Source: Eledone cirrhosa
Taxonomy: Eukaryota
Reading direction: 5' to 3'
Length of the DNA: 64,000 bases
Assembly: GCA_964016885.1 (NCBI GenBank)
Contig: OZ024741.1
Coordinates: 46,128,001 to 46,192,000 of the forward strand
Shown: positions 40,711 through 58,460 of the stretch, one piece after another
How the letters are laid out: each line of letters begins with the position of its first letter
Numbering within the stretch: position 1 is the first letter of the stretch
Made by a program: the position numbers and the translations under genes
Notes under the pieces: generated by a model
Databases searched by the model: none
What the model saw: the letters and a program-made list of their open reading frames with translations, nothing else
Told to the model about the DNA's origin: nothing

Positions 40711-42557
40711 CGTAAAGAAACACTGTATTCATTAATTACTTCATAAACAACACTAAAATAGTGTTTGGTCAGATCTTTTATAAAACATAAAGAAAAAGAG
40801 GAAGAAAGAAACCGATCGTTAGAAACAATGTTTCCATTGTTCTTTCAATTGCTGATACGATATTTTTTATTTTTGATAAATCAATTCACAGTTGTATAAA
40901 TAACATTACAAATATTGGTGGAAATATAAAGGGAAAAGAAAAAGAAAGAAAAAAAGGATAAACATCAAACCAAGCAACGAACAGAGGGGAAGGGGTAAAG
41001 AAGAACAGATCTGGTTGTATAGGAAAGTAGGAGAAAGGGCTATAAATGCCATAAATGAGAGGGAAAGGAGGGGAAAAGCAAGGACTTTGAAGAAAGGGAT
41101 CTGTTAGTTGCAACTCCTGGTTGAAGGAGGCAGGATTTGCACTTAGATACGGTGAAGCATTGCAGTCTACTCTTTAACAATTCCACTAATCCTTTTTTCC
41201 TGAAATGGAACTTGATTTATCGACCCAGAAAGGATGAATAGCTAGGTTGGTCCCAGAACTATTTCAACTCGAAATACAGAGCTCCGGGAAAATAGCGAGA
41301 CATTTAATCCGACACTCAAATGAGTTTACCAATTCGTCACCCATTGTAACAAAACAGAAGAAAAACTTTGCACGCAAGAACTGTCAGTTGTCTCCAACAA
41401 TAATATTGCTTATTAAATAACAACTACAATAACTGTAGCAATGTTAGGTCATAGAATCATACATAGGTTTTCAAACTATGAAGGCAATACATTAATAAAG
41501 CTATAAGCACTTATAAGAAATGTTTGAAATACTTCAATATGTTTATCGCACTATTACATTTCAGCATGAGAATGTATTTATTCTAGGTTTATGTTCGCCA
41601 AAGAGGAAAATTGATATAGTTCTTAGGTATGAGTGAGGCTGAGTGGTTCAGAAGATCACTTGGTGAAAATATAGCCCAAGGTTCTAACTCATTGCAGCAC
41701 CTTCCAGCATTGGACAAATGTATACTACTAGACACTTGAATTGAGCAATAATATTTTGAATGAAATTTGGTAGATTTAAATTATTCCATACCTAGGGGCT
41801 CGACATAAAGAGATCATGATGTAGGTACTAGTTTTTAGATGACCGACTAAACATATATATATATATATATATATGTATTTATATATATATGCATATATAT
41901 GTATATATATATATATATATATATATATATATATATATATATATATATATATATATATATATATATATATATATATACACACACATTTATATAGTAATAA
42001 TAAATGTGAAGACTAAAATCCGAAGAGGGCTCGATAAGGATTATATAAATATATATAAAATAAATATATATATATATATATATATATATATATATATATA
42101 AACCCACAGAGCAAATATTTATTATAAGGACAGATTGAAGTTTAAGGAAAGAATCGCTGCTTTCACCCTTAACAGGATCTTCTGAAACTCAGATATATAT
42201 ACATAATACACACACACACACACACACACACACATATATATATATATATATATATATATATATATATATATATATATATATATATATATATATATATAAA
42301 TATTTATATATATATATATATATATATATATATATATATATATATATATATATATATAGAGAGAGAGAGAGAGAGAGATAGAATTTAGTATATCTACTAA
42401 GATATGCGTACAGATGTACGCTAATGCCAGCAAATACATAAGTTATGTCATAGTACCTAGGTGGTTCAATGCAGGAGGATGCAGAACAATAATATGAAGG
42501 ACGTAAAATAAGAAAATTTAAAAAAAAGATTTTAAAAATTAACTTACTAAAATTTTC

Positions 42558-42639
42558 ACTCCAACTAATTAGTTTCTGCAATGGGATAAAGACAGTTACG
42601 TAATATAACCGTCGAGAATTCATTGCATCATCAGGGAGT
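42558..42639 (-). ncRNA. Type I hammerhead ribozyme (F1)
   Basis: ACUCC-CUGAUGA-UGCAAUG..CAUUGCA-GAAA-CUAAUUAG-UU-GGAGU. Confidence 0.85.
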
Positions 42640-43114
42640 CTATTCTCAGCTAAGTCTCCAGGCAATGCGCGGACACCGGGGACTCATATAAAAATAATAA
42701 TAATTCGGTAGATGGAACAGCTAGCGGGGACTAGATTCCATGCACTGAAAAGCTCGCTGTCTCTGGTCAAATGGCAGATTCTAAAGAATCAATCACGTGA
42801 CACTGAGATAGTCGGAAGGAGTGGGATGGTAAGATGACAGAAGCCTACTACCACACCAATGAATTAGTAGTGGTTTTGGCAGGTTTGCTCAACAAATAAA
42901 TAATTTGGAGATAAATATAGAGAATTTAGTATATCTACTAACATATGCGTACAGATGTACGCTAATGCCAGCAAATACATAAGTTATGTCATAGTACCTA
43001 GGTGGTTCAATGCAGGAGGATGCAGAACAATAATATGAAGGACGTAAAATAAGAAAATTAAAAAAAAAGATTTAAAAAAATTAACTTACTTACTGGAGAC
43101 TTAGCTGAGAATAG

Positions 43115-43196
43115 ACTCCCTGATGACGCAATGAATTCTCGACGGTTACATTACGTAACTGTCTTTATCCCATTGCAGAAACTAATTAGTTGGAGT
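43115..43196 (+). ncRNA. Type I hammerhead ribozyme (F1); predicted cleavage after 43191
   Basis: Stem I ACUCC/GGAGU, CUGAUGA, GCAAUG/CAUUGC, GAAA, palindromic stem III, GUU. Confidence 0.85.
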
Positions 43197-43654
43197 GAAA
43201 ATTTTAGTAAGTTAATTTTTAAAATCTTTTTTTTTTATTTTCTTATTTTACGTCTTTCATATTATTGTTCTGCATCCTCCTGCATTGAACCACCTAGGTA
43301 CTATGACATAACTTATGTATTTGCTGGCATTAGCGTACATCTGTACGCATATGTTAGTAGATATACTAAATTCTCTATATTTATCTCCAAATTATTTATT
43401 TGTTGAGCAAACCTGCCAAAACCACTACTAATTCATTGGTGTGGTAGTAGGCTTCTGTCATCTTACCATCCCACTCCTTCCGACTAGCCTCAGGGTCACG
43501 TGATTGATTCTTTAGAATCTGCCATTTGACCAGAGACAGCGAGCTTTTCAGTGCATGGAATCCAGTCCCCGCTAGCTGTTCCATCTACCGAATTATTATT
43601 ATTTTTATGTGTCCCCGGTGTCCGCGCATTGCCTGGAGACTTAGCTGAGAATAG

Positions 43655-43736
43655 ACTCCCTGATGACGCAATGAATTCTCGACGGTTATATTACGTAACT
43701 GTCTTTATCCCATTGCAGAAACTGATTAGTTGGAGT
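43655..43736 (+). ncRNA. Type I hammerhead ribozyme (F1); predicted cleavage after 43731
   Basis: Tandem copy 540 bp downstream of 43115. Confidence 0.8.
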
Positions 43737-55615: not shown

Positions 55616-55696
55616 TATATATATATATATATATATATATATATATATATATATATATATATATATATATATATATATATATATATATATATATAT

Positions 55697-56911
55697 AAAT
55701 ATTAATACAATAACAGAGATAGTTTAAAGCTAATCTCTGACTGGTAACCATCTCACTCAACAAACATTAGGTTATATTTTAATATAAACCCAATTTAAGT
55801 GTTTGGGGTGCTAACAATATGTATTATGTGGAAAAGCCAGTTGTATTATTTTATGAGATATAATTAAAGTTAAAATATATCTCTCTTTCCAAACAATTGT
55901 TTCATTATAAGTTTTCTACAAATTCGGAGAATATTTCCAGTTTATGTAGAAGCCTAATATACATTCATGTAAGAATATATTTAGGTGGGTGCTTATAAAT
56001 CATCAGTGGAAGCCCATTAAACTTTGATATAAGAAAAACATTTCTTACCACAGTTAAAAATCGTGTCTGTTAAGTTGCTCCTTCCCGCATCGAATGACCG
56101 GCAAACTTGAAATTCCAGCAGTTTTTGACTGAGGAAGTATTATAGCGTCACTAAGCGGGAAGGGGGGACAACTACGATCCACGAAAGGAGGAAAACAAAT
56201 AATATAATATACACGCGGGTTAATTAGTTTTTTCGAAAACATTATCAATCCAACGTGTTAAGAACTCAATTGAAATTAAAAAAATAAATATATGCGTGTA
56301 TAAATTACACACGCATATAGATATTTTCTTAGGCTAAAATCAGAGGTTGTACCTGAATAAGAAACCGCATCTCGTAACCGTAGTAAATACGGAAAGTTAT
56401 GCTTTAAAGGGCAAATGGGAATGTAAATCTCCGGCTGAATTAAGAGTAAAATATAAAACACACGCGGGTTAATTAGTTATTTCAAAACTAATATCAATTC
56501 CTCGTGTAAAGAACTCAATTAATTTTAAAAAATAAATGTATGCATGTAATTATATACATAGGCATATATATATTTTCTTAGGCTAAAAAACAGAGAAGTT
56601 ACAACCAATAAAAACCACAATATCGCACAACAGTAATAAATACGGAAAGTCAAATTTATAAGGTACCCAGAAATAAACACCTCTGGCCAATCAAGAGTAA
56701 AATATTAATACAATAACAGAGATAGTTTAAAGCTAATCTCTGACTGGTAACCATCTCACTCAACAAACATTAGGTTATATTTTAATATAAACCCAATTTA
56801 AGTGTTTGGGGTGCTAACAATATGTATTATGTGGAAAAGCCAGTTGTATTATTTTATGAGATATAATTAAAGTTAAAATATATCTCTCTTTCCAAACAAT
56901 TGTTTCATTAT
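55697..56911 (-). mobile_element. Family F5 tandem element (1003-bp period) with internal ~249-bp duplication
   Basis: 55701 block repeated at 56704; 56211 block repeated at 56460. Confidence 0.8.
55887..56011 (-). ncRNA. Type I hammerhead ribozyme with branched stem II (F5)
   Basis: UUCCA-CUGAUGA-U-UUAUAAG..CUUAUAA-U-GAAA-CAAUUG-UU-UGGAA. Confidence 0.85.
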
Positions 56912-57545
56912 ATATATATATATAAATATATATATATATATGAAAGGTCTGTGTAGAAACCAATCAAGAAGAAGAGATAGGATATTAGTTGTGAGAATTA
57001 TAAGGCAGTAGTTAAGAAGACAGTGTGCTCAATGCGTATAAAGTGCAAGACAAGCGAACAATGAAAGTAAGCGAGAGAAATATATGTCAAGCATTTACAG
57101 GCAGAGCATTAATATATAAATTAATTGTTAGAGAATGCACTAATTATTTTATTCTTAATGATTCCTTTCATATTAACTCTCTCAGCTATTGCACGCTATT
57201 TCTTTTCTCACCGATATTCATTTTTTATTCTACCGTAAAGTATAGTGAGACTTCTGATCTTTTTTTAAATATCTTCTTAGTATTTCAACAGTAAATTTTA
57301 TTAAAAACAAGTTAAGCTTTTTTATCAAAGTGTCTCCCTTTCATCATATTTTTGCCCCTTGCTATTTACACTTGCTTACTTCCTGTTTTATCGCTGCTCC
57401 ATTATTTAAACGGTTAACTTCTTTGAATTTAAAATGTATTTTAATTTTCTTTCACTCCTTCGTGTGATAAATAGTATGCTTTGCATTTTTCATAGTTCCA
57501 ACCTTCAGTGACATGTATTTTTGAATTTTAGGTTTATTTTCATTT

Positions 57546-57670
57546 TAGTTCTGAAGATGAGATCATTTCTTAGTTCAGTTATATTATCATCTGGTCTTAT
57601 TGATTGTATTATCGATAATTTTCATTTTTATTAATTGAATTTTGATGATTTCTGAAACAATTGTAAACCA
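57546..57670 (+). ncRNA. Type I hammerhead ribozyme with long stem II insertion (F9), followed by AATAAA
   Basis: GUU-CUGAAGA-U-GAGAUCAU..AUGAUUUC-U-GAAA-CAAUUG-UA-AAC. Confidence 0.75.
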
Positions 57671-58460
57671 ATAAATATATTTGTTCAAGAATTCAGTATT
57701 GTATTCTGTAACAATTTATATATACATATATATATATATATATATATATATATATATATATATATATATATATATATATATATCGTATATAATAAGGGTT
57801 TTGATCGGTATCCAGTGATTTCGATCTCGTTGTCTTTAATTTGCTGAACAAATTCATTTGGAGCACACGCACAGGATTGTTTGTAATACGACATTCCCAG
57901 CCTAAATCCTAAGCTATTAAAACAATGTAACTATTGTATCGACAGATTACCATGTAAAAACGTTAAAGCACTCACAATTTTATCAATTAAAACACCCAGT
58001 ATACTATTTTAACACACATAAATCTGCCGGAGTACAGCAAATGACAGCGGCATGCAAAACATCTTATATAAAATCATCAAAGATGAATGAACACGATACT
58101 ATTAACGAGTATATATATATATATATATTGTATTTTCTTATACTTTTCAGAATTAAATGCTCCAAAGAGAAGTCCATTTGTTTAACGATGGCCATATCAA
58201 TCTATTGAAATTATAATTTTGGACTTTGAAACTGCAGTAAGGATGTTTTGTTTTTTCCATATGGAGAGATGCTTTTACAGTAATCTGCCCCTCGGTGATT
58301 ATAAAGTATAAAATTGCAAGATTTATTTTTCTTCACTTTATTATTTTAACACTTACTGCAAAAATATAATAATATATTATATTGTGGCTCATGAGATTTG
58401 ATAACATAGTCTGAAAATACGTGCGGTGTTGTTTCCCAAAGGATTTGTTTTTCTATTAAA

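What the first reader, a model, noticed from the sequence alone, without database searches (positions are those of the whole stretch)
42380..57675. Dense community of at least nine hammerhead-ribozyme non-coding element families (retrozyme-like) hidden in (TA)n microsatellites
Seen: most non-SINE islands between (TA)n runs from 42 to 58 kb carry a type I hammerhead fold (stem I, CUGANGA, stem II, GAAA, stem III, NUH), about 19 complete motifs in at least 9 families with no ORF. Several are head-to-tail tandems (540, 560, 595, 434-505 and 1003 bp), often with an inverted arm. Known: hammerheads occur in Penelope-like pLTRs and in non-LTR retrozymes, whose multimeric transcripts self-cleave to monomers that circularise. 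Inference: this is a diverse, probably undescribed cephalopod set of ribozyme-processed non-autonomous retroelements sharing one (TA)n-targeting mobiliser.
Basis: partly seen in the sequence, partly recalled or inferred. Interest (0 to 1): 0.92.

Follow-up and report, generated by a model that had tools for sequence, protein, structure and literature searches.

The report
Ribozyme retro-parasites riding Penelope transposons
This stretch is packed with predicted self-cutting hammerhead RNA motifs inside TA repeats, most in small protein-less repeats likely spread by Penelope-type transposons and the rest in cut-off ends of those transposons, and the copies' edges suggest the ribozyme likely trims the RNA that gets copied.

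Summary
The motifs are real. I count 18 complete or near-complete type I hammerheads in 42380-57675: 15 by descriptor against a shuffle mean of 0.75, 3 by eye. Thirteen lie in ORF-less, fixed-unit tandem families (540/560, 595, 1003, 434/505, about 2070 bp) with dozens of dispersed copies at up to 99% identity: non-LTR retrozymes, i.e. non-autonomous Penelope-like elements (PLEs). Five motifs, plus one partial, are 3' ends of protein-coding Hydra-clade PLEs. Several such PLE families exist, one with intact ORFs, so a single mobiliser is not shown. New: across three families 0 of 99 insertion 3' ends lie at the predicted cut; all lie at 1-2 fixed sites 71-251 nt downstream. In contrast 20 of 100 5' ends fall within 35 nt after the cut (5.3 expected). 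This favours linear, partly cleaved multimers as templates over monomer circles. The 595-bp family carries a U3-A8 core. Cleavage, expression and circles are untested. Retrozymes, their PLE origin and octopus Hydra PLEs with hammerheads are published. The scan noted a similar TA-targeted tandem repeat in another genome.

The parts
42380..43802 (+). Family A, 540-bp ORF-less unit: inverted arm 42380-43090 plus main arm 43093-43802; hammerhead C3 at 42634(-), 43120(+), 43660(+); H17 at 42563, 43191, 43731
43869..44299 (+). Family B: 3' end of a roughly 2.07-kb head-to-tail unit, plus inverted arm; C3 44203, H17 44252; no PLE protein match, longest ATG ORF 96 aa
   Evidence: read by eye
44346..45193 (-). 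Family C, 595-bp ORF-less unit, 98-100% identical full-unit copies; U3-A8 core; C3 44502 and 45097, H17 44423 and 45018
45268..46315 (+). Family A', 560-bp unit (85% to A) with inverted arm; C3 45409(-), 46050(+)
46590..47214 (+). Family D: 3' UTR plus hammerhead (C3 47019) of a protein-coding Hydra-like PLE, 5'-truncated
   Evidence: L256: RT, EN, then hammerhead
47276..47609 (+). Family E: 3' fragment, 72% to E'; C3 47316, long branched stem II; unit length not determined
47704..48365 (+). Family F, 434-bp period, internal (TA)n tract; C3 48084
51414..51952 (-). Second family D PLE end; C3 51512
51967..52144 (+). Family H: 3' end of another protein-coding PLE; hammerhead-like fold with A at core position 4; 5' arm of stem I lost in this copy
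53552..54552 (+). Family F', 505-bp period, short inverted arm; C3 53763 and 54268, each with one core substitution (most genomic copies have the intact core)
54627..54815 (+). Family K foldback with truncated hammerhead; coding status unresolved
55044..55258 (.). Family J foldback of two PLE 3' ends; C3 55175(-) and 55191(+); EN ORF ends 201-213 nt upstream of the cut in 5 genomic copies
55698..56908 (-). Family E', 1003-bp ORF-less unit with an internal diverged 250-bp duplication; C3 56006, H17 55892
56942..57716 (+). Family I: PLE 3' end (57140-57716) plus inverted arm; C3 57551; EN lies 1.3-1.6 kb upstream in genomic copies
62045..64000 (+). Broken Hydra-clade PLE (RT here; GIY-YIG and a 3' UTR hammerhead just beyond the window edge); its family has intact 812-816 aa ORFs elsewhere; a candidate kind of mobiliser

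Best explanation
The region is a pile-up of insertions in (TA)n tracts, made of protein-less fixed-unit tandem repeats with predicted hammerhead ribozymes (non-LTR retrozymes) and truncated 3' ends of protein-coding Penelope-like elements, and both were likely inserted by the RT/GIY-YIG proteins of Hydra-clade Penelope-like elements. Steps: (1) Tandem loci are transcribed into multimeric RNA (inferred). (2) The palindromic-stem-III hammerhead cleaves only some junctions, so the RNA often starts at a cut site but keeps internal hammerheads intact (inferred from 5'-end clustering). (3) The PLE protein cuts (TA)n and primes reverse transcription internally at 1-2 fixed sites 50-250 nt downstream of a hammerhead, at short TA microhomology (fixed ends shown, chemistry inferred). 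(4) Both target ends are often primed, giving an insertion with two outward-facing 3' ends (structure shown, mechanism inferred). (5) RT runs through several units and drops off at random or near the RNA's 5' end (inferred).
For: Fixed units at dispersed loci: A 26 insertions up to 7.3 units, 12 of 26 with an inverted arm; C 21 insertions up to 6.6 units, 9 of 21 inverted; E' 30 loci. Same-strand PLE protein upstream of the hammerhead: A 0/70, C 0/57, F 0/38, B 0/61, E' 1/45 (1,969 nt away), against D 6/13, I 6/21, J 5/22, H 4/30. 3' ends: A +71 and +172 to +208; C +79/80 (20) and +244 to +251; E' +191 to +205; none at the cut. 5' ends in the first 35 nt after the cut: 8/37, 7/31, 5/32, expected 2.4, 1.8, 1.1; only 5 of 100 in the 35 nt before it. 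Two fixed 3' ends match the PLE 'tail' and internal initiation shown in vitro for PAc (PMC11167929). The intact protein has DKT, CxCX5C, CxxC and CxH motifs, the Hydra diagnostics; Hydra elements insert in (TA)n and carry hammerheads. Stem II position 2 of the A superfamily occurs as C-G, U-A, A-U and G-C; stem I of E/E' and F covaries. U3-A8 in 56 of 56 C segments and in an 80% relative. Units A, A', C, F, E' fold at z -4.0 to -6.1; PLE 3' UTRs at +0.1 to -2.6 (25 shuffles). A units within an insertion differ 2.25-2.3%, between insertions 4.4%.
Against: No cleavage or expression data. The 35-nt window was chosen after seeing the ends (50 nt: p 0.005-0.018), loci were the best-scoring full-unit hits (selection bias), and RT stalling at the hammerhead fold would give the same 5' cluster. 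C has a second, equally large 5' cluster at +170 to +197. No ORF-less unit shares sequence with the UTR of any PLE examined, so the partner is inferred from insertion pattern only; Naiad PLEs also prefer (TA)n. MFE folds of 9 isolated motifs mostly do not give the full hammerhead fold, and 6 of 9 have z above -2. In C the hammerhead is not more conserved than the rest (0.58% vs 0.47%); in A it is (1.24% vs 2.56%). PAc hammerhead mutants transposed normally in vitro.
Confidence: 0.68

Rival explanations
1. Classical retrozyme cycle: multimers self-cleave to monomers that circularise, and rolling-circle reverse transcription of the circle makes the arrays.
For: Exact head-to-tail units, priming on both sides of the junction, units of one insertion sharing a haplotype, 11 of 19 multi-segment A insertions with no partly shared variant, highly structured monomers. 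Circles were shown for coral and mussel retrozymes.
Against: A circle has no 5' end, yet 20 of 100 5' ends sit just after the cut. In one 7.3-unit insertion the units differ in an alternating pattern and the inverted arm copies one specific unit junction, which a monomer circle cannot give without later gene conversion.
Confidence: 0.22
2. All islands are truncated ends of ordinary coding PLEs, or satellites born from them by unequal crossing-over, and the hammerheads are passengers.
For: True for D, H, I and J; K unresolved; the Li et al. preprint proposes local amplification from PLE termini.
Against: A, C, E', F have one fixed junction at dozens of unlinked loci at 93-99% identity, ragged 5' ends, fixed 3' ends at (TA)n, and no ORF upstream.
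Confidence: 0.07
3. The motifs are chance matches in AT-rich repeats.
For: No Rfam hit at gathering thresholds, none among the 150 shown of 179 at E<=10.
Against: 15 observed vs 0.75 shuffled, compensatory changes, and the same position relative to element ends in every family.
Confidence: 0.02

Closest known systems
Metazoan non-LTR retrozymes (Cervera & de la Pena 2020, PMC7229834; Li, Clavereau & Pollet 2026, bioRxiv 10.64898/2026.07.22.740005)
   Same: ORF-less tandem units with one type I hammerhead each, GC 31-42%, strongly self-paired, co-occurring with PLEs; unit sizes mostly within the 51-972 bp reported.
   Different: PLE-type hammerheads with stem II inserts up to about 100 nt instead of canonical ones; strict (TA)n targeting with inverted arms and two fixed 3' ends; units of 1003 and about 2070 bp; circles not shown, and end mapping favours linear templates. 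The preprint sampled no mollusc.
Hydra-clade PLEs, including Hydra-1_Obim of Octopus bimaculoides (Craig et al. 2021, PMC8557442)
   Same: C-terminal GIY-YIG, DKT, CxCX5C, CxxC/CxH, (TA)n preference, 3' hammerhead with palindromic stem III.
   Different: RWR instead of RWK in the intact family; its tandem unit is about 6.06 kb with a microsatellite-rich UTR, while Hydra elements were described as generally under 3 kb; at least 5 families here. I saw no non-autonomous Hydra partners in the passages read.
Minimal PLE hammerheads (Cervera & de la Pena 2014, PMC4209133) and PAc internal initiation (Frangieh et al. 2024, PMC11167929)
   Same: Long stem II, short stem I, palindromic stem III, U3-A8 variant (known from Schistosoma Cercyon), two internal RT start sites downstream of the hammerhead, both strands extended.
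   Different: Here the 3' ends sit at short TA microhomology (read by eye), and genomic 5' ends cluster after the cut, whereas for PAc no RNA reads ended at the cut and hammerhead mutants had no effect in vitro.
Non-autonomous Chlamys elements such as MRC1 (PMC8557442)
   Same: Non-coding, multicopy head-to-tail PLE-type insertions in microsatellites.
   Different: Those share 3'-end sequence with autonomous partners and most Chlamys lack canonical hammerheads; no partner homology was found here.

Membership tests
Type I hammerhead ribozyme | CUGANGA...GAAA...NUH core with stems I-III | tested here: met
   16 intact cores, 2 with one substitution
Type I hammerhead ribozyme | Stem covariation among relatives | tested here: met
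   the descriptor preselects paired stems and counts include overlapping loci
Type I hammerhead ribozyme | Match to Rfam hammerhead models | tested here: not met
   likely because of long stem II inserts (inference)
Type I hammerhead ribozyme | Self-cleavage at H17 | not testable with these tools
   indirect only: 5'-end clustering
Non-LTR retrozyme (A/A', C, E', F/F') | Head-to-tail fixed units, one hammerhead per unit | tested here: met
Non-LTR retrozyme (A/A', C, E', F/F') | No protein-coding capacity | tested here: met
   longest ATG ORF 27-111 aa, no tblastn match to PLE proteins
Non-LTR retrozyme (A/A', C, E', F/F') | Low GC, strongly self-paired monomer | tested here: met
   GC 0.31-0.42, z -4.0 to -6.1
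Non-LTR retrozyme (A/A', C, E', F/F') | Expressed as circular RNA | not testable with these tools
   no RNA holder listed
Non-LTR retrozyme (A/A', C, E', F/F') | Sequence kinship to a PLE pLTR | tested here: inconclusive
   no match to the PLE loci held, which cover few of the genome's families
Non-LTR retrozyme (D, H, I, J) | No linked ORF | tested here: not met
   RT/EN upstream at consistent distances
Hydra-clade PLE (family of window 62045-64000) | RT plus C-terminal GIY-YIG; DKT, CxCX5C, CxxC, CxH motifs | tested here: met
   against the description; RWK reads RWR
Hydra-clade PLE (family of window 62045-64000) | 3' hammerhead and (TA)n insertion | tested here: met
Hydra-clade PLE (family of window 62045-64000) | Placement in the Hydra clade on an RT tree | not tested
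   similarity to Hydra-1_Obim judged by eye only

The most novel reading that the evidence does not exclude
Animal retrozymes in this genome are SINE-like passengers of Hydra-clade PLEs that spread through linear, partly self-cleaved multimers rather than circles: the hammerhead defines the template's 5' end, RT primes internally downstream of a later uncleaved hammerhead, and insertion edges record ribozyme cleavage in vivo. The genome would hold some 2-3 x 10^5 hammerheads (extrapolated from 40 in 400 kb) in many families, including very young U3-A8 and family-wide A4 core variants.
Probability: 0.4. Interest if true: 0.72.

Novelty: new variant of a known kind. Interest (0 to 1): 0.52.

Why it matters
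What hammerheads do in Penelope-like elements, and whether retrozymes move as circles, are open questions: Craig 2021 calls the function unclear, and PAc does not need cleavage in vitro. This genome offers young (about 99% identical) non-autonomous families, intact candidate mobilisers, a defined target and thousands of insertion edges. That allows a genome-scale test of template ends and an in vitro reconstitution. The elements themselves are of a described kind.

Tried and rejected
Rfam: no hammerhead among the 150 of 179 rows shown at E<=10, and 0 at gathering. Pfam did not recognise the PLE proteins, so classification rests on motifs. Run search for family C: no RNA holder listed; contigs of four runs covered family C in whole or part, with no joints listed; neither bears on expression. 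Search for a pLTR partner among 42 PLE loci: the longer hits were the PLE-end families themselves or co-inserted copies; the E-like piece in L155 is cut off from the PLE by a (TA)n run. K: the shared sequence starts after a (TA/TG)n tract and no common upstream ORF was found in 20 loci, so it is unresolved. G (48916-49222) had no relative among the loci held, and M (52255-52426) could not be folded as a hammerhead; neither was counted. The E' within-insertion comparison is invalid (its internal duplication mis-aligned) and was dropped; A and C were redone with genome-coordinate de-duplication. In one search the 5' clusters at A +426 to +444 and E' +178 to +200 coincide with my query boundary and are treated as artefacts. 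The residual variant sharing within A insertions (0.82 vs 0.26 per 1000 sites) comes largely from one insertion and may reflect gene conversion. The D and K anchors matched only 13 and 1 sites because the window copies are variant.
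Full report
Observation. The window is G000:C2:46128001-46192000 of a 3.0-Gb genome. A strict type I hammerhead descriptor found 10 motifs in 42380-57675 and none in the other 48.7 kb; 200 dinucleotide shuffles of the islands gave a mean of 0.01. A looser descriptor found 15 against 0.75 (max 3 in 60 shuffles). Three more were read by eye (C3 44203+, 55175-, 55191+). 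That makes 18, two with a single core substitution. Most have a palindromic stem III, a 4-9 bp stem I and often a long stem II, like the PLE hammerheads of PMC4209133 (parts 1-2 of 4 read). Rfam did not detect them.

Background. Forty evenly spaced 10-kb stretches gave 40 motifs at score >=13, against 1-4 in five shuffles; about six of the 40 look doubtful. Counts track (TA)n runs (Spearman 0.67). The region is about 8 times denser than average but comparable to the richest sampled stretches (5-6 per 10 kb). Extrapolation gives 2-3 x 10^5 motifs per genome, a rough figure.

Two classes of island. Each genome search scores only about 40 best candidates, so counts are lower bounds biased to full units. 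Families A (93-97% identity), C (98-100%, one copy 95%), E' (96-98%) and F' (97-98%) occur as fixed units at many unlinked loci. They form arrays of up to 7.3 (A) and 6.6 (C) units with ragged 5' ends, 3' ends abutting (TA)n or another dinucleotide run, and an inverted arm in 12 of 26 and 9 of 21 insertions. B repeats with a period of about 2.07 kb in two loci. None matches PLE proteins, and the longest ATG ORFs are 27-111 aa. Same-strand PLE coding sequence lies upstream of the hammerhead in 0/70 A, 0/57 C, 0/38 F, 0/61 B and 1/45 E' anchors, but in 6/13 D, 6/21 I, 5/22 J (201-213 nt) and 4/30 H anchors; L256 shows RT, EN and the D hammerhead in a row. So 13 motifs belong to ORF-less families and 5 to PLE ends. 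K is unresolved.

Mobiliser. A broken PLE starts at 62045 and ends beyond the window with the same hammerhead architecture in its 3' UTR. Its RT query drew 41,153 first-look candidates, 150 scored, many with open frames of 830 aa. Four stretches examined hold five intact ORFs, in one place in tandem with a period of about 6.06 kb. The protein has DKT, CxCX5C, CxxC and CxH, the diagnostics of the Hydra clade, which inserts in (TA)n and carries hammerheads (PMC8557442, passages). Its supplement lists Hydra-1_Obim from Octopus bimaculoides with a hammerhead. D, H, I and J proteins are about 30-60% identical to the intact one, so several mobilisers are possible, and no ORF-less unit matched their UTRs.

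Function of the motif. Stem II position 2 in the A superfamily appears as four different pairs, stem I covaries between E and E' and within F, and N7 varies. All 56 C segments covering the core have U3-A8, a compensation known to stay active (PMC3088659, passages) and seen in Schistosoma PLEs. Most H copies with an intact upstream side have A at position 4; activity is unknown. ORF-less units fold far better than shuffles (z -4.0 to -6.1), PLE 3' UTRs less so (+0.1 to -2.6) and the B segment -1.8; the PLE ends are mostly older, which may contribute. Isolated motifs mostly do not adopt the active fold in MFE prediction, as expected for dimer-dependent or protein-assisted ribozymes (inference).

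Template. In A, C and E', 0 of 99 3' ends lie at the predicted cut; they fall at one or two sites 71-251 nt downstream. This matches the two internal RT starts and 'tail' of PAc (PMC11167929, parts 1-2 of 4 read), and means templates span intact hammerheads. Inverted arms begin at the same fixed sites, so both target ends were primed; PAc extends both strands in vitro. 5' ends are enriched in the 35 nt after the cut: 8/37, 7/31, 5/32 against 2.4, 1.8, 1.1 expected (p 0.002, 0.002, 0.005), with 5 of 100 in the 35 nt before it. The window was chosen after seeing the data, the loci are selected, C has a second cluster at +170 to +197, and RT stalling at the fold is an alternative. Units of one A insertion share a haplotype, inverted arm included (2.25-2.3% vs 4.4%). 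One 7.3-unit insertion has alternating unit variants, and its inverted arm copies one specific junction. Together these favour linear, partly cleaved multimers over monomer circles, without excluding circles.

Comparison. Non-LTR retrozymes are described from coral, mussel and axolotl (PMC7229834, passages and section 13). A 2026 preprint argues they are non-autonomous PLE derivatives; it sampled no mollusc, and only 1 of 9 tested dimers cleaved (parts 1-3 of 5 read). An Octopus vulgaris repeat annotation has no occurrence of 'ribozyme' in its main text (PMC13282606, passages). Searches listed no paper on cephalopod retrozymes; the library lacks most subscription papers, and Repbase/Dfam could not be checked. 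The host taxon was not tested. One earlier scan note from another genome describes a TA-targeted Penelope-type tandem repeat with a tRNA in place of a hammerhead, not checked here.

Verdict. Real, mixed, and of a known kind; a new variant by hammerhead type, (TA)n targeting and PLE-style insertion anatomy. The end-mapping result is the part a specialist would want to follow. Interest 0.52.

Noticed in passing
window 1662-33584: Cluster of nested non-LTR retrotransposon ORFs among (ATT)n runs: APE-type RT elements (1662-7509, 14541-23160) and RT elements with a C-terminal CCHC and restriction-like endonuclease look (7866-13788, 25781-33584); family names such as R4/Dong and L1/Tx1 are recalled, not tested. 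No hammerhead at score >=11 there.
   Followed up: no
window 49222-49637, 53128-53317, 59489-60430, 39919-40142, 59-245: Copies of a SINE-like repeat with a tRNA B-box-like motif (read by eye), very abundant in the fetched loci.
   Followed up: no
window 41992-42207: Second family H PLE end with the A4 core, just outside the finding.
   Followed up: partly
window 61669-62041: 366-bp near-perfect foldback with a central (TA)n just upstream of the PLE; not assigned to a family.
   Followed up: no
window 55266-55613: Foldback fragments of an A-like tail (76-84% to A/A') without a hammerhead.
   Followed up: no
L247:81, L221:3600, L231:7507, L300:2545 and 2824: At least three further families with U3-A8 cores; L300 and L271 show roughly 280-310 bp tandem spacing, so there are likely more retrozyme families.
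   Followed up: no
L254:3283-6905: The intact PLE family has a 3.6-kb spacer between tandem ORFs, rich in (TA)n/(TG)n, so the element carries its own target type; F units also contain an internal (TA)n.
   Followed up: partly
family C, unit positions +170 to +197 from the cut: A second cluster of 5' ends (7 of 31), possibly a transcription start or a strong RT stop.
   Followed up: no
window 44346-45193, runs X4-X6: Family C sequence is present with few differences in contigs of three other organism labels.
   Followed up: partly
L012: A GIY-YIG piece with an upstream cysteine motif unlike the Hydra type, so another PLE clade is likely present in the genome.
   Followed up: no
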